Shown piece by piece: positions 6,771-42,245 of a DNA stretch of 64,000 nt. Both the position numbers and the translations under genes were made by a program. The notes beneath the pieces are model-generated. The model did not search any database. It was not told the DNA's origin and saw only the letters and a list, made by a program, of their open reading frames with translations. How positions within the stretch are numbered: the first letter of the stretch is position 1; each line of letters opens with the position of its first letter. The stretch lies in the sequence record OR352947.1; one strand, written 5' to 3'. This stretch comes from Escherichia phage AV117.

Positions 6771-6806
6771 ATTATATCATAATATTTAGAGACCTATCTT
6801 AAAGCA
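6771..6806 (-). promoter_or_regulatory. Putative middle-type promoter of gene 55 (MotA-box-like TGCTTTA, TATAAT, flanking 8-bp inverted repeat)
   Basis: Minus strand reads cgTGCTTTAagataggtctctaaatattatgaTATAAT; spacing is ambiguous. Confidence 0.35.
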
Positions 6807-6813
6807 CGAGATA

Positions 6814-7083
6814 CTATCGGAGCAAACAATAAGCCTGAAACACTTTTTCCATTAAACGTTTGAACTCATGGATATCGATATAAAGCTCAGTAAGACCGGC
6901 ATTATAAAGAAAATCTAAAAAGTTCTCATGTGTTTCGTTATAGTCGCCTTCGTTTAATTGAGATACATGAGTTTCCCAAAAACCAACACCTTTAACGAAT
7001 GGAAAATACGTGACTTTCATGTATTCGTCAACATAAAATTCGCCCAGCTTTTCTTCAGTTATACTGATTCGAGTTAATTTCAT
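6814..7083 (-). CDS. Hypothetical protein
   Basis: 89-aa ORF. Confidence 0.5.
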   Translation of the reverse strand: MKLTRISITEEKLGEFYVDEYMKVTYFPFVKGVGFWETHVSQLNEGDYNETHENFLDFLYNAGLTELYIDIHEFKRLMEKVFQAYCLLR

Positions 7084-7307
7084 TCTAGTTCCTTTGCTGC
7101 TTCAAGAGCATCATCCAACGAATCAAATTGGTCAACGAAATCGATATTCAACGCATCGTCAGCCGTAGCATATAGCCACCATTGTTTGAATTCATATTCT
7201 AGGATAAATCCAAGCCCTTCAATCTGAGAAAGACCTAGGCTATTTGTACCAACTTCGTAACCAGCTAGACGCAGGTCATTAATCAAAGATTCTGTTAATA
7301 CGCTCAT
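7080..7307 (-). CDS. Hypothetical acidic protein
   Basis: 75-aa ORF, coupled to neighbours. Confidence 0.5.
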   Translation of the reverse strand: MSVLTESLINDLRLAGYEVGTNSLGLSQIEGLGFILEYEFKQWWLYATADDALNIDFVDQFDSLDDALEAAKELE

Positions 7308-7636
7308 TTTACCGCCTTAACAATTTTCAGGTCAACGAATTTTTTCTTACGTTGATTTTTCATACGACGGATAGTCTTTTCAGAGATTTCATGTTTCTGA
7401 TAAGCTTTAGATTCAACACCAAATGCAGCAACGTCAAATTCAGAAAGAATATATTGTACTAGAATTTCACGAATAGAATTACGTCCAATTTTCTGGTCGT
7501 GTTTTTGCATGATTTCATAAAGACGGAATTCCCATGCGTCAAGGACTTGAGGAGTAACAATATTGCCGGATTCCAGAAGAGCAACAACTTTATCGAAAGC
7601 GAAAGAATTAACTACGTTTTTGATTTTAGTAGACAT
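7304..7636 (-). CDS. Hypothetical protein
   Basis: Start moved to ATG at 7636 (MSTKIKNVV...) with SD GAGGAAAAT; ORF-track start lies upstream. Confidence 0.5.
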   Translation of the reverse strand: MSTKIKNVVNSFAFDKVVALLESGNIVTPQVLDAWEFRLYEIMQKHDQKIGRNSIREILVQYILSEFDVAAFGVESKAYQKHEISEKTIRRMKNQRKKKFVDLKIVKAVK

Positions 7637-7673
7637 ATTATTTTCCTCGGTTATTTTATTATCCAATGAGAGC

Positions 7674-7702
7674 ATTATACTCTGCTCTCAAGAGTTTGTG
7701 CA
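7674..7702 (-). promoter_or_regulatory. Early-type promoter in a palindromic cassette (copy A; near-identical copy at 37939-37967)
   Basis: Minus strand has TATAAT inside inverted repeat GAGAGCA/TGCTCTC; the 42-bp block 7658-7699 matches 37923-37964 at 41/42 positions. Confidence 0.45.
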
Positions 7703-7942
7703 TTATTCCGTGATAAGATAATGTAAATAGTTTGCTTGACGAACACTGATATCAACACCCATATCAAAGATACCTTTATAGAACGGGTATTTGTTTTCAG
7801 TAGAATCTAGACTAAAAGCCTTTCCACCACAACTAACGGTAATAGCATCAGTTAAAGTGTCATATACAAACTTAATAGTTGAGCCATTCACTACGACTTC
7901 AAGACGTTTTTTCGATGTAATAACGTCTAATTCTTGTTCCAT
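7703..7942 (-). CDS. Hypothetical protein
   Basis: 79-aa ORF; a palindromic promoter-like element (GATAGGAAGA...TCTTCCTATC) lies upstream at 7950-7990. Confidence 0.5.
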   Translation of the reverse strand: MEQELDVITSKKRLEVVVNGSTIKFVYDTLTDAITVSCGGKAFSLDSTENKYPFYKGIFDMGVDISVRQANYLHYLITE

Positions 7943-8005
7943 GATATTTTCCTCATTTTAAGACGATAGGAAGATAATAACACGTCTTCCTATCGTTGTA
8001 CATTA

Positions 8006-8218
8006 TTAACCGAACTTTTTAGCGCCTTTCCAGCCTTCATACATAGCTGCACAAGTCAGTAGTACAGCGTGCTGGCATTCTTTGTATTTGTAAATCCAGA
8101 ACCAACGTAAAAAGTCTTCGTCCTCAACGCCGTTGAGTTTCATATTGGCAAAGAATTCGGCACGTTCTTCACGAAGTTGCCATGACACAATATTTTCAGG
8201 ATTCATTTTGTGTTCCAC
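8006..8218 (-). CDS. Hypothetical protein
   Basis: 70-aa ORF. Confidence 0.45.
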   Translation of the reverse strand: MEHKMNPENIVSWQLREERAEFFANMKLNGVEDEDFLRWFWIYKYKECQHAVLLTCAAMYEGWKGAKKFG

Positions 8219-8344
8219 GTCCCATTTTCATCGATGAACTTAATCCAGTCATTTACAGACCATTTAGTTGTATCACCCTTTGGATTAACATTTAAAGTAT
8301 ATAATCCCTGCTTAAAAAGCATTCGTTTGATATTCATAATTTCC

Positions 8345-8665
8345 TCAACTGTAACGATAACATTCATTAGCTTTACGTTTGGCTTCAGTATGAGAAGTAT
8401 TATAATCATAATCTTCTTTACTGTAAACATCTTTTTTCAACTTACGAACTTCTTTGCGGAGTTGTCGATTCATTTCGTTCTTGACTTCGGAATCAACGCC
8501 TTTCATACGTTTCCATTTATCTGAGCGGAAAATGTTTTCAACCATGTCTTTGTGGCTAACACCGTCAGGAGCTTTACGTTTACCAAAATAGTCGTAATCA
8601 CGAACTTTCAAATCTTTACGACGATACGTTTTACCCATAAGTACCTCAGAGGTTGATTGATACAA
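8345..8665 (-). CDS. Hypothetical basic protein
   Basis: 106-aa lysine/arginine-rich ORF. Confidence 0.45.
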   Translation of the reverse strand: MYQSTSEVLMGKTYRRKDLKVRDYDYFGKRKAPDGVSHKDMVENIFRSDKWKRMKGVDSEVKNEMNRQLRKEVRKLKKDVYSKEDYDYNTSHTEAKRKANECYRYS

Positions 8666-8894: not shown

Positions 8895-9073
8895 GGCTTA
8901 ATTTCCTTCGCAATTGAACAGAAGATACCACGGTCACAAAGCATTTCACCAATTTCTGGATATTTGATTGAACGGTACCAAACATCCAGGCTTGAAACTC
9001 TGGTTATCTGTATTGCATTACCATTGACAGAATAGTACTGGTCGACCTTAATTTCTTTATCTTCAATTGTCAT
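8891..9073 (-). CDS. Hypothetical small protein
   Basis: Start at ATG 9073 (MTIEDKEIK...) with SD GAGGAAAAT; early promoter (GTTTAC) just upstream near 9100-9131. Confidence 0.4.
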   Translation of the reverse strand: MTIEDKEIKVDQYYSVNGNAIQITRVSSLDVWYRSIKYPEIGEMLCDRGIFCSIAKEIKP

Positions 9074-9223
9074 TTTATTTTCCTCTATAGTAGATGGTTT
9101 AATCTTAACACATCTATTGAGGATGTAAACTGTTTTATGAAAATATTTTCGATTTGAGAGGGGCACAAGGAGATAGTGAAGTGAAGATTCCAATGGATTA
9201 TATTAGAAATGAGATAAAGAAGA

Positions 9224-13575: not shown

Positions 13576-13746
13576 TCAATATTCTCTATAAAAGTTACGA
13601 TGAGAACGTTTAGCTTTGCGAAGCTGACGTTTAGTAGGACGAACTGTAAATGGTTGTCCAGAGAAAAAATTTGGTTCAGTTTTAATCAACACATACCAAT
13701 CGTGTTCGCCGCTTTTTAATAAACGATATAACAATTTAACTTGCAT
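13576..13746 (-). CDS. Small basic protein (56 aa), paralogue of 12972-13151
   Basis: MQVKLLYRLLKSGEHDWYVLIKTEPNFFSGQPFTVRPTKRQLRKAKRSHRNFYREY; DNA-level similarity too (shared tttagtaggacg block). Confidence 0.35.
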   Translation of the reverse strand: MQVKLLYRLLKSGEHDWYVLIKTEPNFFSGQPFTVRPTKRQLRKAKRSHRNFYREY

Positions 13747-13874
13747 AATAATCTCTTCCAATTTCCAAATCAATCATATCGTTTACTGTAGGTTCATCAT
13801 AACACGTTTCTTCGTCGTTGTAAACTGTTTCGACGTCTGGCTCGACAGTTTCCCATCGAGCCGAATACCATGGT

Positions 13875-14897: not shown

Positions 14898-15202
14898 TAT
14901 AATGTTCTCTCAAATTTGTGGAAGCATTTACGGCATTTCAATTTCAAGTTATCAGTGGTCCAGTTAACCAGTTGGACTTGGATAGTTCCACATTCCGGGC
15001 ACGGATGTTTTGCTGCCGTTTTGGCAGCATTTTCACGTCGTTCAACCATTTTCATTATTTCGTTCCATGCCGGAGGAACGAACTCTCCTTCACCGTGGAT
15101 TTTATCTCGCTGAACAAATTCAATCTTTGAACTATCGTCAATAAACTTAACCAAGCCGTGATTAGTGCTCATATCAATATCCTCTAAAAGACGTAGTTTC
15201 AT
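14897..15202 (-). CDS. Hypothetical zinc-ribbon protein
   Basis: 101 aa with CPECG...CRKC. Confidence 0.5.
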   Translation of the reverse strand: MKLRLLEDIDMSTNHGLVKFIDDSSKIEFVQRDKIHGEGEFVPPAWNEIMKMVERRENAAKTAAKHPCPECGTIQVQLVNWTTDNLKLKCRKCFHKFERTL

Positions 15203-16146
15203 TATAAAACCTCAATGGCATTTCGTAAACCATCAGCTTTTGCATTCAGAGCTTTTAATGATTTAGTTTGTTCTGCAATCTGGGCTTCGACTTCTTTCAG
15301 GCGAGATTTGAGATATTCGCGTTCTTCTCTTAAGTTATCAACTTTTTCTGCTTTAGGCTCTTTAATAGGCTTATACTCGTTAGGGTTCTTCAACTTAATT
15401 TGAATGCGAGAACTGTATAACATTGAACCATTATCTTCGGTTTCATCATACATTTCTACCACGTCCATGATTCTTAACATCATGCGAAGTTTATAAGACA
15501 GCGAACGAATGGTTTTGTTGTGCTTATTAATTTCTTCGGCTTTCATGGTACCGAGATTACGTGAGTAGTAATAAGGAACCTGGATATCAATTGATAATGA
15601 TGCGGTACCATTACCTGTTGGTTTGAACACTGCAGTAACCCAATCTTTAGCATGAACTGTATTTGTACGATCATCGCCACCTGTGAATAATTTACGTGAA
15701 TGTTTAAAAAGCATATTCACTTGGTTATTGAATTCACAAGCAAATTTATCAGCAAATTTAGTTTCAGGAATGGTAGTTAACCAATCAGCCAAATGAGTCT
15801 TTTTAACATCATTAACAATAGTGAATTCAACCAAATCGGTTTTAGATGTCACAGATTTAATAAAGCTCGGCTTCATAAAGTTTTTAATGTTATCGCGAGC
15901 TACAGTAGAAGATAATAAACGAGAACGTTTGAACCATTGAAGCAGTGTCCCTAATGAATGAGAATACGCATTCTGAGTATCTTTACAGATATGATTTTCT
16001 TGGCCTGTGTATGTACCAAAATCGCGAAGAATACCACTTACTACATCTCGGTGTGGAACATCAAATCCTAGTGCACCAGTAGCGCGCTGAGCATGAACGT
16101 TAGCGATAAGACCTGCAAAATAATCAATGTAATGTGAACGTGTCAT
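15202..16146 (-). CDS. Hypothetical protein with C-terminal coiled coil
   Basis: 314 aa; own early promoter; C-terminal heptad-rich region (LREEREYLKSRLKEVEAQIAEQTKSLKAL). Confidence 0.55.
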   Translation of the reverse strand: MTRSHYIDYFAGLIANVHAQRATGALGFDVPHRDVVSGILRDFGTYTGQENHICKDTQNAYSHSLGTLLQWFKRSRLLSSTVARDNIKNFMKPSFIKSVTSKTDLVEFTIVNDVKKTHLADWLTTIPETKFADKFACEFNNQVNMLFKHSRKLFTGGDDRTNTVHAKDWVTAVFKPTGNGTASLSIDIQVPYYYSRNLGTMKAEEINKHNKTIRSLSYKLRMMLRIMDVVEMYDETEDNGSMLYSSRIQIKLKNPNEYKPIKEPKAEKVDNLREEREYLKSRLKEVEAQIAEQTKSLKALNAKADGLRNAIEVL

Positions 16147-16174
16147 AATATTTTCCTCTCGTTAAGATAGAAAG

Positions 16175-16204
16175 ATTATACTCCAACCATCCTTGGTTGT
16201 AAAC
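16175..16204 (-). promoter_or_regulatory. Early promoter (GTTTAC-N18-TATAAT)
   Basis: Minus strand GTTTACaaccaaggatggttggagTATAAT, about 30 nt upstream of ATG 16146. Confidence 0.5.
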
Positions 16205-16208
16205 TGAT

Positions 16209-17141
16209 TTATGATTTTAATGCATTCATTGCGTTAAAAAGTTTAGAGTACTGCAACTGGAGCTTGGTAACTACTTGTTGAGCATCACGAAGCTTAGCTT
16301 GTGCTTTGTCAAGTTCAACAGACAGTTGGTCCGCAGTGGCTTTGATTTGATTATAATAGTAATCTTCGGCAGGAAGAAGACCGTTAGAGATTTCCAGTTT
16401 AGTCGACGGTGTGCCATTAAACATAACAGGTTGTGCTGAAGCCGCATTAATCTTACCGATAGTCGGGGCGACAATAATTGACGCTTCGAACGTTGCATTT
16501 TCCTTTTTAAGATTTTTATAATATTCAGAGTCTTTGTGCCACCATGGCGCAGGAACCTTTTTACCAATAGATACACGAGCCTGGATAGCGATATGGCCCT
16601 TATTCTTGATAACGTCGATAATATTAAGCTCACGAGAATAAATTGCTTTAATCTGGTAAATATTATCACCTAACACTTCCAACGCTTGGTGGAATACACG
16701 AGCAACGTTATCATTCTTAGGTTTATACGTAAGAGTGAACTCGTTCTCACTGATAACCATGATTTCTAACTTATCGTAAGTATATTTCAAATGTTTCATG
16801 TTAATTGCTTGAGGACGAATACGAGAAGCAATGGCCATCAGATTGTTAAGGTTATTTCTGAACTGTTTAGCAAAATATTGTCCTTCACCGCCAATACAAA
16901 AATTACGAAGTTTCTGTTTGGCTAATAAACGACTGAACTCGCCATTTTTAATGAACTCTTTAACTGGTGTGTTAGTAACGCATTCAAATTGAGTAAACTT
17001 ACGAGAAGTAATCCCATAATATGAACAGATTTCCTCAATCTCTTCAGGAGTCTTTACAGGCATACGGATAGGATTAGGTCCTGGGGTATATGCGTTCGAG
17101 GTAAATTCTTTGATAAGTTCTCTACGTGTAATAAAAGCCAT
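16209..17141 (-). CDS. Hypothetical protein with C-terminal coiled coil
   Basis: 310 aa; SD GAGGAATAT; C-terminal LSVELDKAQAKLRDAQQVVTKLQLQY. Confidence 0.55.
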   Translation of the reverse strand: MAFITRRELIKEFTSNAYTPGPNPIRMPVKTPEEIEEICSYYGITSRKFTQFECVTNTPVKEFIKNGEFSRLLAKQKLRNFCIGGEGQYFAKQFRNNLNNLMAIASRIRPQAINMKHLKYTYDKLEIMVISENEFTLTYKPKNDNVARVFHQALEVLGDNIYQIKAIYSRELNIIDVIKNKGHIAIQARVSIGKKVPAPWWHKDSEYYKNLKKENATFEASIIVAPTIGKINAASAQPVMFNGTPSTKLEISNGLLPAEDYYYNQIKATADQLSVELDKAQAKLRDAQQVVTKLQLQYSKLFNAMNALKS

Positions 17142-17167
17142 TTTATATTCCTCATGTTGAAAAATTT

Positions 17168-17197
17168 ATTATACTCCAACCATCCCTGGTTGTACAT
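17168..17197 (-). promoter_or_regulatory. Early promoter (TGTACA-N18-TATAAT)
   Basis: TATAAT with upstream TGTACA; shares the ccaaccatcc..tggttgta core with the promoter at 16175. Confidence 0.45.
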
Positions 17198-18192
17198 CAT
17201 TCCTTAAGAAGTTTTACTACTTGAATAAGATTAGCTCGTTCCGTTTTATTTTTACCATTTAAGCCTGCTAATCGTGAGATTTCATCATCAGTCTGTTGAA
17301 TAGTTACATTAAGTTCGTTAATCAAAGCTTCAAAGTATTTGATTTGCTCAGCATGTTTTGATTCAAATTTCTGAACCGGAATAACGTCTTGGTTCAGTTC
17401 ATCAATAAGGTCTTTAAGAGCATCTTCTTGGTTGATATCATATTCAACTTCTTTTATTTCTTCAACGAGCTCGTCTTTATATCTAACGTCTTTTAGTCCT
17501 GGTGCTGGTCCTGAAATCTCTTCTTTAAGAGTACAAACATATCCAATACGGTATCCAATGCCGTCTCGCTTGATATCAACTTCGTCAATAAATCCACAAT
17601 GTTTAAGACCAGAGCCGATTAGGTCAAAATATCCTTGACGTCGTCCTTCAAACGTTACACGAACTACTAAGACAGTTTTACCTGCAACCTTTTGAAGCTC
17701 ACATTTATAAAAGTTTGTTGAACCTGAATACCGTGGATGAGTTTTAAAGTTCATCTGACGATCTAGGCCCATTTGTAAGCGTGCTGATACGGCCATAAAA
17801 CGTGTTTGGTTCTCGTTAAGATGAGCAACAATCCATTTCAAAGGCATTTTACACTGTTCACGACCGAACAAATCAGTACGTCCTAGATTACGCAGAATGT
17901 TGTTAGAGTTAATCATCGACAGAACGTTAAGTTTATTCAGCGCGCTGAAGATTCCATCAGCCATTGATTTTCCGTAACCTTTACACGCTTTAATAAGCGC
18001 TCGCGGTAGATTAGTATAAATTTCAGACGGCATATGAAAATCAAATTTACTAGTCAGTAATTGATGAACTTGGATAGCAATTTGCTCATAATTAAGTGCT
18101 CTGCGATCATTATGGTCTTTAAACCACACTTTAATCTGTGAAGCACATAAACCGTTAATTTCATGTTTTACCGCATCAGATGTAATGCTCAT
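17197..18192 (-). CDS. Hypothetical protein with C-terminal coiled coil
   Basis: 331 aa; SD GAGGAAATAG; C-terminal heptad region; upstream TATAAT with a MotA-box-like CGCTTTA. Confidence 0.55.
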   Translation of the reverse strand: MSITSDAVKHEINGLCASQIKVWFKDHNDRRALNYEQIAIQVHQLLTSKFDFHMPSEIYTNLPRALIKACKGYGKSMADGIFSALNKLNVLSMINSNNILRNLGRTDLFGREQCKMPLKWIVAHLNENQTRFMAVSARLQMGLDRQMNFKTHPRYSGSTNFYKCELQKVAGKTVLVVRVTFEGRRQGYFDLIGSGLKHCGFIDEVDIKRDGIGYRIGYVCTLKEEISGPAPGLKDVRYKDELVEEIKEVEYDINQEDALKDLIDELNQDVIPVQKFESKHAEQIKYFEALINELNVTIQQTDDEISRLAGLNGKNKTERANLIQVVKLLKE

Positions 18193-18782: not shown

Positions 18783-18809
18783 GTTTTACCTCCAGTAGTT
18801 GATAGGTCT

Positions 18810-18838: not shown

Positions 18839-18840
18839 AA

Positions 18841-30000: not shown

Positions 30001-30030
30001 TTTTGTTTCCTTGTTTGTTTTGATAGAGTA

Positions 30031-30060: not shown

Positions 30061-30063
30061 AAT

Positions 30064-30330: not shown

Positions 30331-30744
30331 TTAGTAAATTGATTTACCATAGTATTTGTACCAAGTCGGACGTTGAGCAATTTTTTCATCTAAGCGTGCT
30401 TGACTTATCGCAATGGACGCTTCGGACGGGACATAATTATTACGAAATTCGGCAGGGATGTCGGAAATATCCTGGACTGTCGTGTCCTTGATTTTGAAAC
30501 CACGTTTCAAACATTCAGCGATTAGCTCGATTTGTCGTAAACGTAAAAATTCGAGTTTGTCGTAAAAGAATGTTACGTGACCTGTGCCTAAGATAAATGT
30601 TGGAGAGATTTTAAAATCCTTTACACGTTTACCGTTTTGAACATGTTTACGGACTGCACCAAATACGCGTGGTAATTCACGATACTCAGCCATAAGATGT
30701 TGGTCGGTCAGTTCAGAAACAAGTGTTAAATTGATACGAGTCAT
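30331..30744 (-). CDS. denV: Endonuclease V (pyrimidine dimer DNA glycosylase) DenV
   Basis: 138 aa from ATG 30744, [33 protein letters not shown]...; matches T4 DenV. Confidence 0.85.
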
Positions 30745-30802
30745 AATTTCCTCCAAGTAGTTGATGAATGTATAGTATCAAAACCCTTGGAGGAAGTAAA
30801 CA

Positions 30803-31084
30803 CTATTTTTCTGAAGCGCCCGAAATATATTTTTCAAGACGTTGTTTCATCAGCGAGCCGTTCTTAGCGATTTCTTCCGGTTTATCGCACATGCGCAACA
30901 AGGCTTCAAGCTTAACGATATCACTGGTACGTTCAAATTTGCGAGTATCTATCTTACTAGCAAGTTCAGAAATACGTGCTAATAGACTTTCAGCTTCAAC
31001 CAAAGCTGCACCTAGCTTAGTCGCAAATGTGTCAGTAGCTTCGTTAAGAATAGATTCTGATAAAAATTCACTATATGTTTTCAT
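30803..31084 (-). CDS. Internal protein-like (CTS variant [10 protein letters not shown])
   Basis: Start at ATG 31084, overlapping the gene e stop (ATGA); CTS-like N-terminus. Confidence 0.55.
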
Positions 31085-33237: not shown

Positions 33238-33543
33238 TTATTTTCCTCGACATTCTTTAATGAAATTTTCTAGATTGGTAGATTCAATAGCTTTTTTACG
33301 AGCTTCTGCGTGTTCTTCTTCGGACAATTTACGTTTATAATTGACCCAGACATTATGGTCGAAACCAGTCGTGGCATATAATAACAATGCTCCAACGAAT
33401 AGCAAAAACGGCGATAAGAATACAAAACCAGGAACACCATCCATATCGTAAGCCTTTTGTAATACTGCAACAGAAAGAGCTACGTAAAAAGGTGATGCAA
33501 GTATTGTTAAAAGACCAATTCGGTTGGTTTCTGTTAATTTCAT
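33238..33543 (-). CDS. Hypothetical membrane protein with C-terminal FIKECR motif
   Basis: 101 aa; two TM helices; ...NLENFIKECRGK; SD GAGGAGAATATT. Confidence 0.5.
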   Translation of the reverse strand: MKLTETNRIGLLTILASPFYVALSVAVLQKAYDMDGVPGFVFLSPFLLFVGALLLYATTGFDHNVWVNYKRKLSEEEHAEARKKAIESTNLENFIKECRGK

Positions 33544-33569
33544 AATATTCTCCTCAAGTTGATAGGACT

Positions 33570-33599
33570 ACTATAACATAGCCCTATCAGTTTGTACAC
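33570..33599 (-). promoter_or_regulatory. Early promoter in palindrome GATAGGACT/AGCCCTATC
   Basis: TATAGT -10 inside the inverted repeat; -35-like GTGTAC. Confidence 0.45.
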
Positions 33600-33800
33600 T
33601 TATTTTGACATTTCTTCGATGTCACGACGATACCCATCACGAACTTCACGAAGAGCTTCAAGGCCACACATAGGCTCGATACCAGTAATGTGAACTTGAT
33701 TAATCTGATACTCTACATCTTCTAACTGAGCGAAAACATAACGACGTTCTGCTGCACAACCAGGTTTAGCTTTACCGAAACGTTTATTCAAAGTAGTCAT
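33600..33800 (-). CDS. Hypothetical protein
   Basis: Start at ATG 33800 (MTTLNKRFGK...) with SD GGAGATATAAAA; ORF-track start is GTG. Confidence 0.45.
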   Translation of the reverse strand: MTTLNKRFGKAKPGCAAERRYVFAQLEDVEYQINQVHITGIEPMCGLEALREVRDGYRRDIEEMSK

Positions 33801-33838
33801 TTTTATATCTCCATTCACTCATTTGTTTTGATAGGTCT

Positions 33839-33868
33839 ATAGTATCAACAACTACAGACCTTGTAAAC
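33839..33868 (-). promoter_or_regulatory. Early promoter (GTTTAC-N18-TACTAT) with inverted repeat AGGTCT/AGACCT
   Basis: Minus strand GTTTACaaggtctgtagttgttgaTACTATagacctatc. Confidence 0.5.
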
Positions 33869-33881
33869 AGTTTTTGCGAAA

Positions 33882-34862: not shown

Positions 34863-35102
34863 TTAAATTTCACGACATGCGATATTATATTCATCCCAGA
34901 GGTCATCGTGTGAAGCCTCTACCAATGGAACGATTGTACCATTTATATCTTCATTATAAGGGCAAATTGTACAATGTGCATCTTCGAATCGGATGCCTTT
35001 GTGTTCAGATTTTTTATAACGCATATCGAATATCTTTGCAAACTTTTCACGAGTAATGGTTTTAGCAACCACTTCGGTTCCAACACTTTCATAATAAATC
35101 AT
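34863..35102 (-). CDS. Hypothetical protein
   Basis: Start at ATG 35102 (MIYYESVG...) with SD GGAG. Confidence 0.45.
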   Translation of the reverse strand: MIYYESVGTEVVAKTITREKFAKIFDMRYKKSEHKGIRFEDAHCTICPYNEDINGTIVPLVEASHDDLWDEYNIACREI

Positions 35103-35130
35103 TGTGGACTCCATTTAATTTGATAGGACT

Positions 35131-35160
35131 ACTATAACATAGTCCTATCTTGTTGTAAAC
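35131..35160 (-). promoter_or_regulatory. Early promoter (GTTTAC-N18-TATAGT) in palindrome GATAGGACT/AGTCCTATC (near-identical copy at 41861-41890)
   Basis: Minus strand GTTTACaacaagataggactatgtTATAGTagtcctatc. Confidence 0.5.
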
Positions 35161-35164
35161 TGTT

Positions 35165-35362
35165 TTAGCAAGAATAACTAGATGATACCCAGCCTTGAAC
35201 AGTGATACTATTGTGGGATAATGAGATCGCGTCCTGGAGATTCAGACCTGCGTTATCTTCAATCCATAACGTAACTTCTTCGCGTTCTTCTGTTGCAATT
35301 TGGAACAGGTTTTCCAGAGCAGCTACTGCCGTACGTACAGCACAATCTAATTCACGAGACAT
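35165..35362 (-). CDS. Small protein, C-terminal GWVSSSYSC (paralogue family of three)
   Basis: 65 aa; shares the terminal W-[VI]-[SA]-S-S-x-x-C motif with 35372-35644 and 35654-35959. Confidence 0.5.
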   Translation of the reverse strand: MSRELDCAVRTAVAALENLFQIATEEREEVTLWIEDNAGLNLQDAISLSHNSITVQGWVSSSYSC

Positions 35363-35653: not shown

Positions 35654-35959
35654 TTAGCACAACGCAGAAGACGAAACCCAAGCACCTTCAGTAATAATGT
35701 AACCATTACCTTCACGCTTAACATCGCCACCATTATTTTCAATTTCATCTTTCATCCACTGGGATACGATTTCACCCTTAGGATAATAAGTACGACCACT
35801 ACCATAATCACCTACAGAAAATGATACGGCATATTGGTCTGCGATCTTTGTTGCTTCTTCTTCGATACGTTCAGCTTGATTCAGAAGTTTATAAATTGCA
35901 TCTGAAGCGGATTTGGCATCATTAAACTCTGGTACTTTAATTTCAATAATCTTACTCAT
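35654..35959 (-). CDS. Small protein, C-terminal AWVSSSALC (paralogue family)
   Basis: 101-aa ORF. Confidence 0.5.
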   Translation of the reverse strand: MSKIIEIKVPEFNDAKSASDAIYKLLNQAERIEEEATKIADQYAVSFSVGDYGSGRTYYPKGEIVSQWMKDEIENNGGDVKREGNGYIITEGAWVSSSALC

Positions 35960-36315
35960 TTTCTACATTCCTTAATAAAGTTTTCGATTGTTTCATTTTC
36001 ACGTCTAGCTAGGAGTTCATTATAACTAATCATTTGAGAAGCGTAAACCTTTTTATTTTTCTTGTTATGGTTTATAAAATCGTAGTAAAAATAGACTACA
36101 GTACAAAATGATGCGATGGATGCAAAGGCTTGTGTATACCGTAAGTCCTGCCATTGGTCTGTGAATCCGCCAGTGTTCCCTATAAATCCTAACACAACGC
36201 CGTCAATAAGAAATCCAACTAATCCAAAGGCAAATCCCATGCCAATACTCATAATAAAAATTAGAATGTTCTCACCAAGAGAAGGCCATACGGTTAAGAG
36301 TTGAGGCTTTTGCAT
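35956..36315 (-). CDS. Hypothetical membrane protein with C-terminal FIKECR motif
   Basis: 119 aa; TM helices; ...IENFIKECRK. Confidence 0.5.
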   Translation of the reverse strand: MQKPQLLTVWPSLGENILIFIMSIGMGFAFGLVGFLIDGVVLGFIGNTGGFTDQWQDLRYTQAFASIASFCTVVYFYYDFINHNKKNKKVYASQMISYNELLARRENETIENFIKECRK

Positions 36316-37303: not shown

Positions 37304-37897
37304 TTATTTCAAAGAGTTAATATATTCTTGTACATCGGCAGAAGTGGTTTCGACACCGGTTGGAGTGCCATTGAACGTTTCAACACGAGTCAGAGTGTCT
37401 TCGATATCAACCTTAGTTAGTGCAGCGATTTCAATTACATCATCGGCCGTAGAGATACCAAGGGCATTGGCTGCTCGAGTTTCACGAATGTATTCGAGTT
37501 TGATTGCCAGATTCTGACGAGCATCATCAAGTTCAACCACCTTACGAGCAATTTCAATTCGCATAGCGGCATACCCGTCAGCTTTTGTATTAAGTTGTTC
37601 GGCAGTTCGACGATACAGAAGACCAAGCTTAGCATGCATGGTAACATCTTGTCCTTCAGCCAGGAGCTTACGAATTTCACGTTCCTTAGAAGCTGCTTGC
37701 TTGTTCTTTTCATTAACAAGTTCGCGAATACGTTTTTCTTCATTAATAGATTTAACAGAAGCCGTTTTTAGTTCTTTGATTTGGGTAATCAACTTATCTG
37801 CAGCTGCGTTATACTGTTCTTCGACAGTCAGATTTTTAGCCATAGCAGTACCCAGTTTAGTGCGGATGAATTCAACAAGTTTCTTCAGTGTGTTCAT
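37304..37897 (-). CDS. Coiled-coil protein (a PspA/IM30-like helical architecture is possible but unproven)
   Basis: 197 aa from ATG 37897 ([10 protein letters not shown]...) with SD AAGGTAATAAT; heptad-rich. Confidence 0.5.
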
Positions 37898-37938
37898 ATT
37901 ATTACCTTTCAATTGGTGGTTTATTATCCAACGAGAGC

Positions 37939-37967
37939 ATTATACTCTGCTCTCAAGAGTTTGTAAA
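37939..37967 (-). promoter_or_regulatory. Early promoter (TTTACA-N17-TATAAT) in a palindromic cassette (copy B of the 7674-7702 element)
   Basis: Minus strand TTTACAaactcttgagagcagagTATAATgctctc. Confidence 0.5.
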
Positions 37968-38195
37968 TTATTTTTTAATCAAATTGACATAAAACTCGGC
38001 GTCTTCTGGGTGCATGCCTTCGCAGTATTCTTCAACCATGAACTTCTTAACAGCTTCATAAGGACCGCTCAGATTAAGCTCAGTTGTCCAGAATTTGGAA
38101 TCTTGGACTGAATCGATACGAACTTCAGGGTGACGGTTGCGAATAACTTCTTCGGTGTATTCATAATCAACGACATCAATACTAACTGTAGCCAT
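37968..38195 (-). CDS. Hypothetical acidic protein
   Basis: 75 aa; SD AGGAGAAACAAA. Confidence 0.5.
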   Translation of the reverse strand: MATVSIDVVDYEYTEEVIRNRHPEVRIDSVQDSKFWTTELNLSGPYEAVKKFMVEEYCEGMHPEDAEFYVNLIKK

Positions 38196-38224
38196 TTTGT
38201 TTCTCCTCTGTAGTTGATAAGTCT

Positions 38225-38254
38225 ATAGTATCACCATCCTTGGTGTTTGTACAT
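38225..38254 (-). promoter_or_regulatory. Early promoter (TGTACA ... TACTAT)
   Basis: Conserved gataagtctatagta box with inverted repeat CACCAAGGATGG/CCATCCTTGGTG. Confidence 0.45.
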
Positions 38255-38757
38255 CATTTATTTTTAATTTTGCAAATTTTTTCTGCTTCAACAATTGCAG
38301 CGTCAATGATGCTTTGTGCAATTTTATTACTAGTTGACCTGGCAATCACACTAAGAACAATTTCTTTTTCTTCACCACCCCAACCCCAAGTCCTTTGTTC
38401 GTGGGTACCTTTAACTACAGCTGAAACTTCAACAGAACGTCCACCATCAGAAGTTTTAACATCTACAACCCAATCACCATCTTTCTCTTCTACCCTTGAT
38501 TTATCCCAAGAAATACTAATATATGATTCGCTATCAATAGAAGTCGCCGGGTTTTTCTCTACCGTAAGACCTTCACTTTCCAGCCATTCAATAGTATTTG
38601 CGCATAAATCTGAAGAACACCTAATCGGAAACCGGCAAGATTTTTCACCTTTAGCTGCAGCGTTATACATCTTTTCTAAAATACGCTTTTGCACGTTTTT
38701 AAAAATAGTTTCAGCAGATTCTTCAGATTTTTTATTCAGTTCAGTGTAAAGACTCAT
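38254..38757 (-). CDS. Hypothetical protein
   Basis: 167 aa; SD GGGGAGAATATT. Confidence 0.5.
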   Translation of the reverse strand: MSLYTELNKKSEESAETIFKNVQKRILEKMYNAAAKGEKSCRFPIRCSSDLCANTIEWLESEGLTVEKNPATSIDSESYISISWDKSRVEEKDGDWVVDVKTSDGGRSVEVSAVVKGTHEQRTWGWGGEEKEIVLSVIARSTSNKIAQSIIDAAIVEAEKICKIKNK

Positions 38758-38785
38758 AATATTCTCCCCATGTTTTGATAGGTCT

Positions 38786-38814
38786 ATAGTAACACATCTA
38801 GGGAAGAAGTAAAC
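38786..38814 (-). promoter_or_regulatory. Early promoter (GTTTAC-N17-TACTAT), near-identical to the regB promoter cassette
   Basis: About 92% identical over 40 bp to 27072-27112. Confidence 0.5.
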
Positions 38815-38845
38815 AACTTTTTCAGTAAGTTATAGACCCCCTAAA

Positions 38846-38861
38846 GGGACCCGAAGGTCCC
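38846..38861 (-). terminator. RNA hairpin GGGACC-UUCG-GGUCCC (second copy of the 28-bp repeat)
   Basis: 38836-38863 is identical to 20336-20363; sits 3' of the stop of 38868-39494. Confidence 0.45.
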
Positions 38862-38867
38862 CATTCT

Positions 38868-40982: not shown

Positions 40983-40986
40983 TTAC

Positions 40987-41277
40987 TCACCGTACCATAT
41001 TAATGTAATTATATTCAATGCAACGTAATTTCAAAGGATTCTTGAAAATATCATATTCAAGAGGACCTTTTTCTGTTTCAATAAAGAAATCAAAGTTCAC
41101 ACTATTAAATTTGCGGTCTTCCCAAAGTAATTTAACCTGTGAAGATGAACGGTCGACGTAAACCTTTTCAACTTCAAAGTGGGTCAAAATACCATAGTAA
41201 TCGACTAGTGCTTTAGCTGCAGCTCGGTCGCTTTCATATCCATTCTCAACGGATTTTACCTTAGCATAAAGAATCAT
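40987..41277 (-). CDS. Hypothetical protein
   Basis: 96-aa ORF. Confidence 0.5.
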   Translation of the reverse strand: MILYAKVKSVENGYESDRAAAKALVDYYGILTHFEVEKVYVDRSSSQVKLLWEDRKFNSVNFDFFIETEKGPLEYDIFKNPLKLRCIEYNYINMVR

Positions 41278-41636
41278 GAATGTTCCACCATTTCAAAGGT
41301 ATGAGCATCAACAATATGATACCAGTCAAAATTTTCTTCTGCGTTTTTATAAATTTCGCGAAGAGCCTCAACAGTTTTTCCTGTAGCAACAAGGTCGTCA
41401 ATACCACCAAGAGGATAACAGTCATAACCAGCAAACAGAAGGAAATTAATAGTTTCTGTAGGTTCTGGATGCAGAACTCCGTTATCGTCTACCACTTCAA
41501 AGAAAGTGTAAGAAGGAGTACAAGTTTTAATCCAGGCCCATGCTTGAGCTGCTGAATCAAACGGATTACGGAATAAACGACAATCAGGGTCTTTAGAAGG
41601 ATTTGCTTCAAAATCAGCATATACATGATATTTCAT
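41274..41636 (-). CDS. Hypothetical protein
   Basis: Start at ATG 41636 (MKYHVYADF...) with SD AAGGTGAGTAAA; ORF-track start is TTG. Confidence 0.5.
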   Translation of the reverse strand: MKYHVYADFEANPSKDPDCRLFRNPFDSAAQAWAWIKTCTPSYTFFEVVDDNGVLHPEPTETINFLLFAGYDCYPLGGIDDLVATGKTVEALREIYKNAEENFDWYHIVDAHTFEMVEHS

Positions 41637-41637
41637 T

Positions 41638-41823
41638 TTACTCACCTTTTGCAATTTTATCCATAACGATAGCGATTAAGCCGATTAGAAATGCTACTAC
41701 CAATGAGATAGAGTTTTCAGTTGTTGTCAGTAGTCCACAAATGAATCCTACAAACATCGAAAAACTAAAAGCCATTGAAGCAATTACTACAGCAACATTA
41801 CGAATCAGTTCAGCGCGTTTCAT
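41638..41823 (-). CDS. Small membrane protein
   Basis: Start at ATG 41823 (MKRAELIRNVAVVIASMAF...) with SD GGAGAAATAAA; two hydrophobic helices. Confidence 0.45.
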   Translation of the reverse strand: MKRAELIRNVAVVIASMAFSFSMFVGFICGLLTTTENSISLVVAFLIGLIAIVMDKIAKGE

Positions 41824-41860
41824 TTTATTTCTCCATTTACTCATTTGATTTGATAGGACT

Positions 41861-41890
41861 ACTATAACATAGTCCTATCGTGTTGTAAAC
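41861..41890 (-). promoter_or_regulatory. Early promoter (GTTTAC-N18-TATAGT) in palindrome GATAGGACT/AGTCCTATC
   Basis: One mismatch from the cassette at 35118-35160. Confidence 0.5.
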
Positions 41891-41893
41891 TAC

Positions 41894-42181
41894 TTACAGA
41901 AGAGTTTTTGCAATAATTTTAAGCTGAGCTACAGAAATATGCTTAGCTTTAAACAGTGCAGTCTCTTCAGCCGGAGAGATAACAATAGTAGCGCCATCTT
42001 TCTTAGCAGACCATCCATCCCCTAAGTAAACAGTACCTTTTACTTCTTCGCCGTCAACCAGACTAATCATTGGTTTACCCTCACGTCCTTTATTTGCTTT
42101 AATAACTTCGGAAGTAAGGGTTGCTTCAGTCAGAGTAGAAACGTTAGCAACAGGTGATATAAATTCTTTATAGGTTTTCAT
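41894..42181 (-). CDS. Internal protein (IPI position) with capsid targeting sequence
   Basis: N-terminus MKTYKEFISP; sits next to 57B as ipI does in T4; mature region not recognisably T4 IPI. Confidence 0.6.
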   Translation of the reverse strand: MKTYKEFISPVANVSTLTEATLTSEVIKANKGREGKPMISLVDGEEVKGTVYLGDGWSAKKDGATIVISPAEETALFKAKHISVAQLKIIAKTLL

Positions 42182-42215
42182 TTTATTTCCTTGAGGTCGT
42201 TTATTTGATAGGATG

Positions 42216-42245
42216 ATAGTATCACGCCATCATCCTTATGTAAAC
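42216..42245 (-). promoter_or_regulatory. Early promoter (GTTTAC-N18-TACTAT) with inverted repeat AGGATGAT/ATCATCCT
   Basis: Minus strand GTTTACataaggatgatggcgtgaTACTATcatcctatc; SD AAGGAAATAAA precedes ATG 42181. Confidence 0.5.

What the first reader, a model, noticed from the sequence alone, without database searches (positions are those of the whole stretch)
6771..42245. More than 20 early promoters embedded in palindromes, recurring as near-identical ~40-bp cassettes at distant loci
Nearly every minus-strand gene in the accessory regions has its own sigma70-type promoter with the T4 early -35 (GTTTAC or close) and a -10 (TATAAT/TATAGT/TACTAT). In most copies the -10 sits in the loop or arm of an 8-10-bp inverted repeat whose arm sequence varies with compensatory changes (GATAGGACT/AGTCCTATC; AGGTCTAT/ATAGACCT; AGGATGAT/ATCATCCT; GAGAGCA/TGCTCTC; GATAGGAAGA/TCTTCCTATC). 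Pairs are almost identical over ~40 bp despite lying 7-30 kb apart: 7658-7699 versus 37923-37964 (41/42), 35118-35160 versus 41848-41890, 27072-27112 versus 38774-38814. This resembles the promoter-early stem-loop (PeSL) cassettes reported for some T4-type phages and proposed to drive modular gene shuffling; they would also be natural binding sites for a dimeric regulator.
Basis: seen in the sequence. Interest (0 to 1): 0.6.

Follow-up and report, generated by a model that had tools for sequence, protein, structure and literature searches.

The report
Early-promoter stem-loop cassettes (PeSLs) in T4-like phage
The repeated promoter palindromes are real and belong to a published class of T4-phage regulatory cassettes (PeSLs), but the stems look like RNA hairpins rather than protein-binding DNA sites, and one subclass buries the next gene's ribosome-binding site.

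Summary
The window is an RB69-like (Mosigvirus) T4-type coliphage, covering the early hyperplastic regions from nrdC to gene 4. I find 25 T4-type early promoters on the minus strand. The strict pattern gives 20 hits against 0.44 expected, none on the other strand.

Nineteen of 26 candidates carry a helix:
- Class A (10): the stem straddles the -10.
- Class B (6, including regB and denV): the spacer is an anti-Shine-Dalgarno sequence that pairs with the downstream gene's SD.
- Class C (3): a small hairpin lies inside the spacer.

Arm complementarity is cassette-specific (0 of 20,000 arm-swap permutations reach it) and covaries across 213 cassettes from about 50 related phages. Internal mismatches are G·T 31, A·C 3, which indicates selection on sense-strand RNA. 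That argues against cruciforms or dimeric-protein operators.

The three cited twin pairs are exact: 41/42, 42/43 and 37/41. Rearrangement breakpoints against 11 relatives are enriched at cassettes (15 of 58 ends, 5% expected). Five single-gene indels run cassette to cassette.

These are PeSL-type cassettes (Arbiol 2010; Comeau 2014), so the kind is known. "Nearly every gene has a promoter" is overstated: there are about 26 promoters for about 80 genes. The anti-SD class at early promoters, also present in T4 regB and denV, is the only possibly new angle.

The parts
7634..7709 (-). Early-promoter cassette, class A. Stem GAGAGCA/TGCTCTC lies around TATAAT; the -35 (TGCACA) is weak. Twin of 37895-37974.
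   Evidence: 41/42 identity; one end of a cassette-to-cassette indel 7699<->7996
7940..8009 (-). Early-promoter cassette, class A. 12-bp stem ACGATAGGAAGA/TCTTCCTATCGT.
   Evidence: other end of indel 7699<->7996
8335..8434 (-). Promoter-like site GTTTACA-N17-TATAAT that overlaps the start of an ORF. No cassette-type helix. Uncertain.
9071..9137 (-). Early-promoter cassette, class B. Bipartite helix: TCCTC/GAGGA (the SD) plus TAGATG/CATCTA.
13744..13831 (-). Promoter-like site GTTTACA-N17-TATGAT. No helix. Uncertain.
15170..15236 (-). Promoter-like site GTTTACG-N17-TATAAT at the 3' end of the upstream ORF. No helix.
16144..16210 (-). Early-promoter cassette, class C. Hairpin AACCA-AGGA-TGGTT lies inside the spacer.
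   Evidence: (D18)
17139..17203 (-). Early-promoter cassette, class C. Hairpin AACCAGGGATGGTT lies inside the spacer.
   Evidence: (D18)
18780..18845 (-). Early-promoter cassette, class A. Stem AGGTCTAT/ATAGACCT, upstream of the nrdC.8 homolog. The T4 ortholog of this gene is class B.
20245..20321 (-). Early promoter GTGTACA-N16-TATTAT with only a weak helix. Preceded by a GC-rich UUCG-loop hairpin at 20335-20363.
   Evidence: (D6); breakpoint at 20307
22947..23013 (-). Early-promoter cassette, class A. 12-bp stem TTGGTAGGACTA/TAGTCCTACCAA, compensatory relative to GATAGGACT/AGTCCTATC.
23401..23499 (-). Composite element: a canonical terminator (GCCCC...GGGGC followed by T6, 23466-23499) followed by a class B early-promoter cassette (TTCTCCTC/GAGGAGAA).
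   Evidence: (D14)
27053..27119 (-). regB early-promoter cassette, class B. The spacer TTCTCCTCTAG pairs with CTAGAGGAGAA, which contains the SD.
   Evidence: breakpoint at 27116
29297..29360 (-). Early-promoter cassette, class B (helix includes G·U pairs). Followed by a 3-codon truncated ORF (ATGACTCGATGA).
29998..30066 (-). Early promoter GTTTACG-N17-TATAAT upstream of an internal-protein-like gene. No helix.
30742..30807 (-). denV early-promoter cassette, class B. TTCCTCCAAG pairs with CTTGGAGGAA, which contains the SD.
   Evidence: T4 denV is also class B
33541..33605 (-). Early-promoter cassette, class A. Stem TGATAGGGCTA/TAGTCCTATCA with one G·U.
   Evidence: one end of indel 33599<->33862, seen in 5 relatives
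33798..33874 (-). Early-promoter cassette, class A. Stem AGGTCTGTAGT/ACTATAGACCT with one G·U.
35100..35166 (-). Early-promoter cassette, class A. Stem GATAGGACTA/TAGTCCTATC. Twin of 41821-41896.
   Evidence: 42/43
35957..36054 (-). Promoter-like site GTTTACG-N17-TATAAT inside coding sequence. No helix. Uncertain.
   Evidence: breakpoint at 36048
37895..37974 (-). Early-promoter cassette, class A. Stem GAGAGCA/TGCTCTC, upstream of the e.6 homolog. Twin of 7634-7709.
   Evidence: relatives carry a ~290-bp module inserted here
38193..38260 (-). Early-promoter cassette, class C. Hairpin CACCAAGGATGGTG lies inside the spacer (C-G where the other two copies have A-T).
38755..38863 (-). Composite element: a GC-rich UUCG-loop hairpin (38840-38863) followed by a class B cassette (UUCUUCCC/GGGGAGAA with one G·U). 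37/41 identical to the regB cassette.
   Evidence: (D2, D6); breakpoint at 38771
41821..41896 (-). Early-promoter cassette, class A. Stem GATAGGACTA/TAGTCCTATC, upstream of the trna.4 homolog.
   Evidence: both kinds of indel end here
42179..42251 (-). Early-promoter cassette, class A. Stem AGGATGAT/ATCATCCT, upstream of the ipI-like internal protein gene.
   Evidence: one end of indel 41890<->42239
24030..24085 (-). Not an early cassette. The TTGACA-N16-TAATAT match overlaps a conserved TATAAATA late-type promoter upstream of the rI.1 homolog.
   Evidence: orthologs conserve TATAAATAC

Best explanation
These are PeSL-type regulatory cassettes of the T-even kind. Each is a stereotyped intergenic unit of about 70 nt. 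In order it holds the upstream gene's stop codon, 3-4 nt, the -35 (GTTTAC), a 17-nt spacer, the -10 (TAnnAT), a conserved start region (..CTATCAA..), a leader of about 20 nt, the SD and the ATG. Host sigma-70 RNA polymerase starts early transcription about 7 nt after the -10 (inferred from the consensus, not measured).

The spacer also encodes the 5' arm of a helix whose 3' arm lies at or beyond the start site. The helix can therefore form only in RNA that reads through from an upstream promoter. The cassette's own transcript lacks the 5' arm.

There are two interchangeable designs. In class A the stem closes right around the -10, at the 3' end of the upstream transcription unit. It probably acts as an attenuator or 3'-end structure, as the PeSL authors showed by reporter assay for one RB49/phi1 stem. 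In class B the spacer is an anti-SD sequence that buries the downstream gene's ribosome-binding site. Translation of that gene then depends on its own early promoter, or on a ribosome terminating just upstream. This is the same logic as the T4 e, soc, 49 and I-TevI hairpins, but built around an early promoter.

Both designs insulate a one-gene module from its genomic context. Because the cassettes are repeated with about 50 bp of near-identity, they also serve as homology patches for the phage recombination system, so single-gene modules are gained, lost and swapped at cassettes.

Shown here: the promoters, the helices, their covariation, the strand-specific G·U tolerance, and the breakpoint association. 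Inferred: the start sites, RNA folding in vivo, the translational masking, and the attenuation.
For: Identity and promoters:
- The window is 96-97% identical to Mosigvirus genomes.
- The strict promoter pattern gives 20 hits against 0.44 expected, on the minus strand only.

Helices are cassette-specific:
- Arm-swap permutation gives 0 of 20,000.
- Across 213 cassettes, helices of 9 bp or more number 37 (class A) and 27 (class B), against 1.9 +/- 1.3 and 2.4 +/- 1.5 after swapping.

Covariation:
- There are 53 distinct class A and 30 distinct class B helices.
- Orthologs of one gene carry different self-complementary arms and switch between class A and class B.
- A formal count on 95 unselected cassettes gives 52.4% paired against 47.8 +/- 0.9 (0/500), and 31-43% in slid registers.
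- regB leaders from 5 lineages keep an 11-15-bp SD-containing helix although the non-SD sequence is completely different.

RNA level:
- Internal mismatches are G·T 31, A·C 3, other 10. The chance-helix null is 505:404:1302 (p = 7e-6; 5e-5 on unique helices).

SD masking:
- For class B the predicted SD unpaired probability is 0.16 in read-through RNA and 0.69 in the cassette's own transcript.

Generality:
- T4 itself has class A at ipI, trna.4 and mobD.2, and class B at regB, denV and nrdC.8.
- RB49 PeSLs share the class A and class C geometry.

Known paradigm in the same window:
- Gene e has the classic 12-bp SD-burying hairpin (review PMC3014915).

Shuffling:
- 15 of 58 breakpoint ends lie within 10 nt of a cassette, where 5% is expected (p = 1e-7).
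- 16 of 36 events touch a cassette.
- 5 single-gene indels run cassette to cassette with 4-17 nt of overlap.

Literature: PeSL promoter and terminator reporter assays and mini-circles (PMC2839356); T-even-type PeSLs (PMC4122927).
Against: - There are no start-site, 3'-end or RNA-structure data for this phage or for T4 in the papers I could reach.
- Whole-segment folding energy does not differ significantly between strands (-13.6 against -12.3 kcal/mol, p = 0.14). The RNA argument rests on mismatch type.
- G·T tolerance would also fit a hairpin in single-stranded coding-strand DNA.
- Class A stems have no U-tract and are AU-rich, so they are not canonical terminators. They barely change SD accessibility (0.50 against 0.59), so their effect is unproven here.
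- The upstream stop codon lies only about 9 nt before the class B 5' arm. A terminating ribosome would open the helix, which would make the design translational coupling rather than silencing.
- Against a gene-junction null the breakpoint enrichment is modest (12/26 against 18/72, p = 0.04; p = 0.057 for spacers of 30 nt or more).
- Seven of 26 promoters have no helix.
Confidence: 0.7

Rival explanations
1. The stems are purely transcription terminators or attenuators, as in the original PeSL model. Each hairpin stops RNA polymerase arriving from upstream, so that every gene is transcribed only from its own promoter. SD pairing is incidental.
For: One RB49/phi1 PeSL stem reduced lacZ expression about as much as the rrnB T1 terminator (PMC2839356). 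Class A hairpins sit at the very end of the upstream unit, with the stop codon 3-4 nt before the -35. Classes A and B are interchangeable at orthologous genes, which suggests one shared job.
Against: Sense-strand stems here are AU-rich and are followed by A-rich sequence (ATCAAAAC) rather than a U-tract. None is called a sense-strand terminator. Genuine terminators, with a GC-rich stem and a T-run or a UUCG loop, exist separately in the window and sit upstream of some cassettes (D6/D14). Class B helices have loops of 25-35 nt that contain the -10 and the start site. Their 3' arm is specifically the SD, and flanking positions covary. That is not terminator geometry.
Confidence: 0.25
2. The palindromes act as duplex-DNA elements. 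They would be operators for a dimeric phage or host regulator that shuts off early promoters, or cruciforms cut by endonuclease VII that seed recombination.
For: The -10 lies at the centre of an inverted repeat. How T4 early promoters are shut off is not fully understood (PMC3014915 and PMC2988021). The PeSL authors speculated about a stem-binding recombination protein. Breakpoints cluster at cassettes.
Against: The arm sequence is free to vary (80 distinct helices), so there is no conserved recognition sequence. Mismatches are strand-asymmetric, G·T 31 against A·C 3, although a duplex palindrome or a two-armed cruciform is symmetric. Helix register and arm spacing vary. Class B arms are 30-45 nt apart and include the SD.
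Confidence: 0.05
3. The hairpins are mRNA stability or processing elements. They would protect the 3' ends of upstream messages after endonucleolytic cleavage, or shield GGAG SD sequences of read-through RNA from the RegB endoribonuclease and RNase E.
For: The structure acts at the RNA level on the sense strand. SDs in these cassettes are mostly GGAG or GAGG, the RegB target. regB itself carries the strongest class B helix, and RegB cleaves its own SD. The hairpins sit in AU-rich intergenic RNA.
Against: I could run no test that separates this from translational masking or attenuation. In class A the AU-rich -10 sits in the loop and is therefore exposed rather than protected. This rival is compatible with the main explanation and does not exclude it.
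Confidence: 0.2
4. There is no function. The apparent palindromes would be a by-product of a long, partly self-complementary promoter consensus (TATA-like -10) and of recent duplication of cassettes.
For: T4 early promoters have an unusually long consensus (PMC2988021). Some cassette pairs are recent copies.
Against: Arm swapping keeps the consensus and the composition yet abolishes the helices. Slid registers lose pairing. Compensatory changes occur across lineages whose proteins are 35-80% identical.
Confidence: 0.02

Closest known systems
PeSL (promoter-early stem-loop) cassettes of coliphages RB49 and phi1 (Arbiol et al. 2010, PMC2839356)
   Same: Each is a strong early promoter with an overlapping stem-loop and the SD and ATG at its 3' end. 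They lie between small accessory genes in hyperplastic regions, are repeated many times per genome, and sit at indel and replacement junctions between close relatives. The -10-in-loop and stem-in-spacer geometries are visible in RB49 itself.
   Different: RB49 and phi1 use a perfect TTGACA/TATAAT consensus and G-run/C-run stems. Here the -35 is GTTTAC, and the stems are AU-rich and highly variable in sequence. No anti-SD (class B) design appeared in the RB49 stretch I sampled. The PeSL papers treat the stem as a terminator or a possible protein target and never discuss translation or SD pairing.
T-even-type PeSL-like elements: PST/T4 PeSLs (Comeau et al. 2014, PMC4122927) and the internal-protein locus elements of Repoila et al. 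1994 (cited in PMC2839356)
   Same: They share the promoter consensus TTTACW-N17-TAYWAT and have weak, AT-rich stems of variable sequence. They are associated with the ipI and ipII/III loci, which lie in this window. T4 orthologous promoters show the same helices.
   Different: The 2014 paper describes the PST stems as lying just upstream of the promoter, with an AGNA-loop-TCNT form. Here most stems straddle the -10 or reach to the SD. The RB69/Mosigvirus group was not analysed in the papers I read.
SD-sequestering hairpins with an internal promoter in T4 genes e, soc, 49 and I-TevI (reviewed in PMC3014915)
   Same: A long upstream-initiated transcript folds so that the SD is buried. A promoter inside the hairpin region yields a shorter transcript that lacks the 5' arm and can be translated. 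Class B cassettes have exactly this geometry, and gene e in this window shows the classic case.
   Different: In the known cases the internal promoter is a late (or middle) promoter and the purpose is to delay expression. Here it is an early sigma-70 promoter whose own spacer is the anti-SD, and the design recurs at many genes as part of a mobile cassette. No experiment has tested it.
Rho-independent terminators and UUCG-tetraloop hairpins of T4 intercistronic regions
   Same: They are RNA stem-loops in intergenic regions of early transcription units. Genuine examples occur in the window at 23466-23499, 39535-39568, 20335-20363 and 38840-38863.
   Different: Class A and class B stems lack GC-rich stems and U-tracts on the sense strand and are not called as terminators.

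Membership tests
PeSL cassette | Sigma-70-type early promoter (-35 and -10 with about 17-nt spacing, AT-rich upstream region) | tested here: met
   20 strict and 26 relaxed matches, on the minus strand only, against 0.44 expected. Consensus nAAAnnGTTTACA..N..TGnTAYTAT.
PeSL cassette | Stem-loop within or overlapping the promoter | tested here: met
   19 of 26 in the window and 118 of 213 in relatives, far above the arm-swap null.
PeSL cassette | Intergenic position in hyperplastic regions, with the SD and start codon of a small accessory gene at the 3' end | tested here: met
   Distance from the -10 to the ATG is 26-41 nt in most cassettes. The region is nrdC-tk-regB-e-ipI.
PeSL cassette | Recurrence as conserved repeats at distant loci of one genome | tested here: met
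   pairs 41/42, 42/43 and 37/41, lying 7-30 kb apart.
PeSL cassette | Association with insertion, deletion and replacement junctions between close relatives | tested here: met
   15 of 58 ends against 5% expected (p = 1e-7). Five events run cassette to cassette. Only modest against the junction-only null (p = 0.04).
PeSL cassette | Promoter activity and terminator/attenuator activity in vivo; formation of mini-circles | not testable with these tools
   Shown only for RB49/phi1 elements in PMC2839356.
SD-sequestering hairpin with internal promoter (T4 e/soc/49/I-TevI type) | Helix includes the SD and/or the AUG of the regulated gene | tested here: met
   Class B only: 6 in the window and 40 of 213 overall. 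SD unpaired probability 0.16.
SD-sequestering hairpin with internal promoter (T4 e/soc/49/I-TevI type) | A promoter lies between the arms, so that its transcript lacks the 5' arm | tested here: met
   By geometry: the 5' arm is in the spacer, and the predicted start lies 6-8 nt after the -10. SD unpaired probability rises to 0.69. The start site is inferred, not measured.
SD-sequestering hairpin with internal promoter (T4 e/soc/49/I-TevI type) | The internal promoter is a late (TATAAATA) or middle promoter, giving delayed expression | tested here: not met
   The internal promoters are early GTTTAC/TAnnAT types. I therefore do not file class B as a member, only as working like one.
SD-sequestering hairpin with internal promoter (T4 e/soc/49/I-TevI type) | Demonstrated reduction of translation from the long transcript | not testable with these tools
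   -
Intrinsic (Rho-independent) terminator | GC-rich stem followed by a U-tract on the transcribed strand | tested here: not met
   No class A or class B stem is called on the minus strand. Only the antisense reading of 35122-35149 passes.
Operator for a dimeric DNA-binding protein, or cruciform | Conserved arm sequence and strand-symmetric base pairing | tested here: not met
   80 distinct helices. G·T 31 against A·C 3.
Any curated RNA family (Rfam 15) | Match at gathering score | tested here: not met
   Only two tRNAs in 1-46000.

The most novel reading that the evidence does not exclude
T4-type early promoters may be systematically built as start-site-straddling RNA switches. The promoter spacer doubles as the 5' arm of a helix that exists only in read-through RNA. 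In the anti-SD variant (regB, denV, nrdC.8 and many accessory genes, in T4 as well as here) it would make translation of the gene depend on its own early promoter. The same helix might hide the GGAG SD from RegB. This would be a genome-wide insulation layer that gives each one-gene module context-independent expression, and that would explain why such modules can be shuffled freely. To my knowledge, and in the reviews I could read, this has been described only for late-promoter cases, not for early promoters.
Probability: 0.35. Interest if true: 0.55.

Novelty: new member of a known kind. Interest (0 to 1): 0.4.

Why it matters
PeSL cassettes are the proposed linker sequences that let T4-type phages swap accessory genes. 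Many of those genes are anti-defence or host-takeover genes, so confirming the cassettes in the RB69/Mosigvirus lineage extends the published picture but does not change it. The useful addition is mechanistic. The stems behave as sense-strand RNA structures rather than DNA protein sites. A sizeable subclass masks the next gene's ribosome-binding site in read-through RNA, including at the classical T4 genes regB and denV. If this is verified, it would link promoter architecture, translational control and genome modularity in a model phage. It would also give design rules for context-independent expression cassettes in engineered phages.

Tried and rejected
- The loose sigma-70 consensus scan is uninformative in this AT-rich genome, with observed counts about equal to shuffled counts. 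I replaced it with a strict T4-early pattern.
- Comparing whole-segment folding energy between strands gave no significant result (p = 0.14). I replaced it with a mismatch-type test that uses a compositional null.
- RNAalifold on a MAFFT alignment of regB leaders returned no structure, because the arms differ in length and the helices fall out of register. I used an SD-anchored comparison instead.
- Rfam holds no family for the cassettes.
- The T4 RefSeq record carries no promoter features.
- The T4 genome review (PMC150520) is not held.
- No T4-type TSS or Term-seq paper was found, and one search failed on a term that was too short.
- Candidate 24050 was dropped as an early promoter, because its orthologs conserve a late TATAAATA box.
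- The sense-strand terminator reading of class A stems was rejected for lack of a U-tract. An antisense-terminator reading was rejected because the G·U asymmetry favours the sense strand.
- I considered whether the twin cassettes reflect gene duplication. Similarity stops at about 50 nt and does not enter the flanking genes.

Full report
**What the window is.** The 34-42.5 kb stretch is 96-97% identical to Mosigvirus (RB69/JS09/HX01-like) T4-type coliphages. By comparison with phage Mizar and T4, the minus-strand genes of 1-45.8 kb run nrdD/49, nrdC, tk, vs, regB, denV, e, the tRNAs, ipI, 57, 1, 3, 2 and 4. The plus-strand block from 45.8 kb holds baseplate and neck genes 53 to 14. These are the classical early, hyperplastic regions of the T4 map.

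**Checking the observation: promoters.**
- The first cited pair is visible directly in the sequence.
- A strict T4-early pattern (GT[TG]TAC, 17-18 nt, TANN[AG]T) occurs 20 times on the minus strand of 1-46000. It never occurs on the plus strand or in the late block. A first-order Markov model expects 0.44 +/- 0.68.
- With relaxed -35 boxes and a required SD plus ATG, I obtain 26 candidates.
- One candidate (24050) is really a late TATAAATA promoter, judging from its orthologs.
- Four candidates overlap coding sequence and are uncertain.
- A loose sigma-70 scan is not enriched, so only the extended phage-type consensus carries information.
- There are about 80 genes in the finding's range. Roughly one gene in three has such a promoter, not nearly every gene.

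**Checking the observation: twin pairs.** The three twin pairs are 41/42, 42/43 and 37/41 identical. They are the three best of 325 pairwise comparisons (background 23.4 +/- 4.8 of 48). Their similarity ends after about 50 nt without entering the flanking genes.

**Anatomy.** Folding each cassette from the -35 to the start codon separates three designs.
- Class A (10 cassettes) has an 8-12-bp stem. Its 5' arm lies in the spacer and its 3' arm begins inside or just after the -10 and ends around +1 to +7.
- Class B (6 cassettes, including regB and denV) has a pyrimidine-rich 5' arm immediately after the -35, such as TTCTCCTCTAG. It is the reverse complement of the downstream gene's Shine-Dalgarno region, such as CTAGAGGAGAA.
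- Class C (3 cassettes) has a short hairpin (ACCAAGGATGGT) wholly inside the spacer.
- Seven candidates have no convincing helix.
- A block after the -10 (..CCTATCAA..) is conserved in all classes.
- The upstream gene's stop codon lies a median of 3-4 nt before the -35. The 5' arm starts 9 nt (class B) or 14 nt (class A) after the stop.
- Some cassettes are also preceded by genuine GC-rich terminators or UUCG-loop hairpins (families D6 and D14).

**Is the complementarity more than chance?** I joined the 5' half of one promoter to the 3' half of another, which keeps the consensus and the composition.
- Native cassettes fold at -13.56 kcal/mol on average, against -9.71 +/- 0.55 for the chimeras. 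None of 20,000 permutations reaches the native value.
- I then harvested 213 distinct cassettes from the window, phage Mizar and 49 IMG/VR loci of diverse T4-type phages.
- Helices of 9 bp or more number 37 (class A) and 27 (class B). After arm swapping the counts are 1.9 +/- 1.3 and 2.4 +/- 1.5.
- There are 53 distinct class A and 30 distinct class B helices.
- On a gapless alignment of 95 unselected cassettes with 17-nt spacers, the commonest register has 52.4% paired cells. Column shuffles give 47.8 +/- 0.9 (0 of 500 reach the observed value) and slid registers give 31-43%. The covariation score is 0.247 against 0.192 +/- 0.011.

**Orthologous loci.** Orthologs of a single gene carry different cassettes, and each cassette is internally complementary. 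For the trna.4 homolog the arms are GATAGGACT/AGTCCTATC, GGTAGGACT/AGTCCTACC, GATAGGGTA/TACCCTATC or TGTAGGGAT/ATCCCTACA. In other lineages the same gene has a class B helix, ATCTCCATTTG/CAAATGGAGAT. The nrdC.8 homolog is class A here but class B in T4. regB keeps class B in five lineages while the non-SD part of the helix is entirely replaced: TCTAGTTG/CAACTAGA, TCTTGACTG/CAGTTAAGA, TGTAAG/CTTACA and TCTTTATG/CATAAAGA. The two designs therefore look interchangeable. The selected property is pairing, not sequence.

**DNA or RNA?** I detected helices with a scoring that treats all mismatches alike, then typed the internal mismatches. They are G·T 31, A·C 3 and other 10. Chance helices from arm-swapped chimeras give 505:404:1302, so G·T should be 56% of the two transition-type mismatches. 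The difference has p = 7e-6, or 5e-5 on 80 unique helices. A duplex palindrome, a cruciform or a dimeric-protein site is symmetric between strands. Tolerance of G·T on the coding strand alone is the signature of G·U pairs in sense RNA. A hairpin in single-stranded coding-strand DNA is formally possible too. Whole-segment energies do not differ significantly between strands (p = 0.14), so this conclusion rests on mismatch type.

**Mechanistic inference.** With sigma-70 promoters the start lies about 7 nt after the -10 (established knowledge, not measured here). The cassette's own transcript therefore lacks the 5' arm, and only RNA arriving from upstream can form the helix.
- For class B, the predicted unpaired probability of the SD is 0.16 in read-through RNA and 0.69 in the own transcript.
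- This is the logic documented for T4 genes e, soc, 49 and I-TevI, where a late promoter sits inside an SD-burying hairpin (PMC3014915). Gene e in this very window shows the classic 12-bp structure.
- The difference is that here the internal promoter is an early one and the design is part of a mobile cassette. I therefore say class B works like that family, but I do not file it as a member.
- The upstream stop codon lies only about 9 nt before the 5' arm. A terminating ribosome would invade the helix, so termination-coupled unmasking is a live alternative to plain silencing.
- Class A stems end at the start site and hardly change SD accessibility (0.50 against 0.59). They lack a U-tract and are not called as terminators.
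- Their most likely role is attenuation or 3'-end formation of upstream transcripts. The PeSL authors showed this for one RB49/phi1 stem, but it is unproven here.

**Shuffling.** I compared the window with 11 close relatives.
- I found 36 distinct rearrangement events with 58 distinct ends. Fifteen ends lie within 10 nt of a cassette, where 5% is expected (p = 1e-7). Sixteen events touch a cassette.
- Five events run cassette to cassette. Three are single-gene modules present here and absent elsewhere: 7699<->7996, 33599<->33862 and 41890<->42239. Two are modules of about 290-360 bp inserted at cassettes 37895-37974 and 41821-41896. The junctions overlap by 4-17 nt.
- Against the stricter null that indels of whole genes must end between genes, the enrichment is modest: 12/26 cassette junctions against 18/72 others (p = 0.04), or p = 0.057 for spacers of 30 nt or more.
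- The data fit recombination between repeated cassettes, but they do not prove that the cassettes drive it.

**Comparison with what is known.** PeSLs were defined in RB49 and phi1 as a strong early promoter plus a stem-loop, with the SD and ATG at the 3' end. They are concentrated in hyperplastic regions, lie at indel junctions and can form mini-circles (PMC2839356).
- PeSLs were extended to PST/T4 with the consensus TTTACW-N17-TAYWAT and to nt-1/KVP40 (PMC4122927).
- The authors note that AT-rich analogues flank the T-even internal-protein loci (Repoila 1994, cited).
- T4 itself shows the same helices at ipI, trna.4, ipII and mobD.2 (class A) and at regB, denV and nrdC.8 (class B).
- RB49 shows the class A and class C geometries, but no class B in the stretch I sampled.
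- The long early-promoter consensus is known (PMC2988021).
- Neither PeSL paper mentions translation, read-through or SD pairing. The T4 post-transcriptional review lists SD-masking only for late-promoter cases and calls the regB promoter 'typical'. I could not read the older T4 literature, so I cannot guarantee that the class B observation is new.

**Verdict.** This is a new member (the Mosigvirus lineage) of a known kind. The analysis adds evidence that the stems act as sense-strand RNA, and it identifies an anti-SD subclass at early promoters that deserves an experiment.

Noticed in passing
window, offsets +3 to +11 after each -10 (for example 35112-35125, 41842-41855, 27073-27084); also T4 (L051) and RB49 (L056): A block right after the -10, ..(C)CTATCAA(A/C).., is conserved in all cassette classes, including those with no stem. 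RB49 has a similar block, CCATCGAAAC. It would place the start at the A of ATCAA and suggests a selected initial transcribed sequence.
   Followed up: partly
window 31575-31612 (minus strand), upstream of gene e (31081-31581): This is the classic T4 lysozyme leader: a 12-bp helix AUACCUCCUAUA/UGGGAGGUAU buries the SD (MFE -24.7 kcal/mol for the 91-nt segment folded, z = -3.1). It served as an internal comparator for class B.
   Followed up: yes
window 20335-20363 and 38840-38863; 23466-23499 and 39535-39568: There are two pairs of near-identical GC-rich hairpins. One is a GGGACC-UUCG-GGUCCC tetraloop type, and the other is a canonical terminator with a T6 run. In three of the four cases the hairpin lies immediately upstream of an early promoter, forming a terminator-plus-promoter composite.
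   Followed up: partly
window 29630-29659, 29971-30000, 30295-30324, 31055-31084, 42152-42181 (minus strand): Five small genes share the N-terminus MKTYQEFI.. (reverse complement of TTC..AATAAATTCTTGATATGTTTTCAT). From my own knowledge of T4 this is the capsid-targeting sequence of internal proteins, which would make them a family of IP-like genes in the ipII/III and ipI loci.
   Followed up: no
window 29283-29297 (minus strand), after promoter 29297-29360: A class B promoter is followed by a 3-codon ORF (ATGACTCGATGA) that resembles the start of denV (ATGACTCGTATC, at 30756). It looks like the remnant of a duplicated or truncated cassette-plus-gene module.
   Followed up: no
window 41821-41860, 33798-33838, 20245-20285 (leaders): The leader motif AAATGAGT(A/G)AATGGAG contains GTAAAT, which is complementary to the -35 GTTTAC. 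It could form an outer helix reaching the SD in read-through RNA. Read on the plus strand, it creates an antisense promoter-like match (41835-41865 and 18784-18814).
   Followed up: no
window 16144-16210, 17139-17203, 38193-38260: The class C spacer hairpin occurs at three loci. Its closing pairs change in a compensatory way: AACC..GGTT in two copies and CACC..GGTG in the third. Its loop is AGGA or GGGA.
   Followed up: partly
window 40233-40387; relatives L001 and L054: The window has only two tRNA genes (Arg-tct and Met-cat). Relatives carry an extra tRNA-Asn, and phage Mizar carries an 874-bp insertion that encodes a NUMOD3/DUF559 homing-endonuclease-like protein between the tRNAs. That breakpoint is not at a cassette.
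   Followed up: partly
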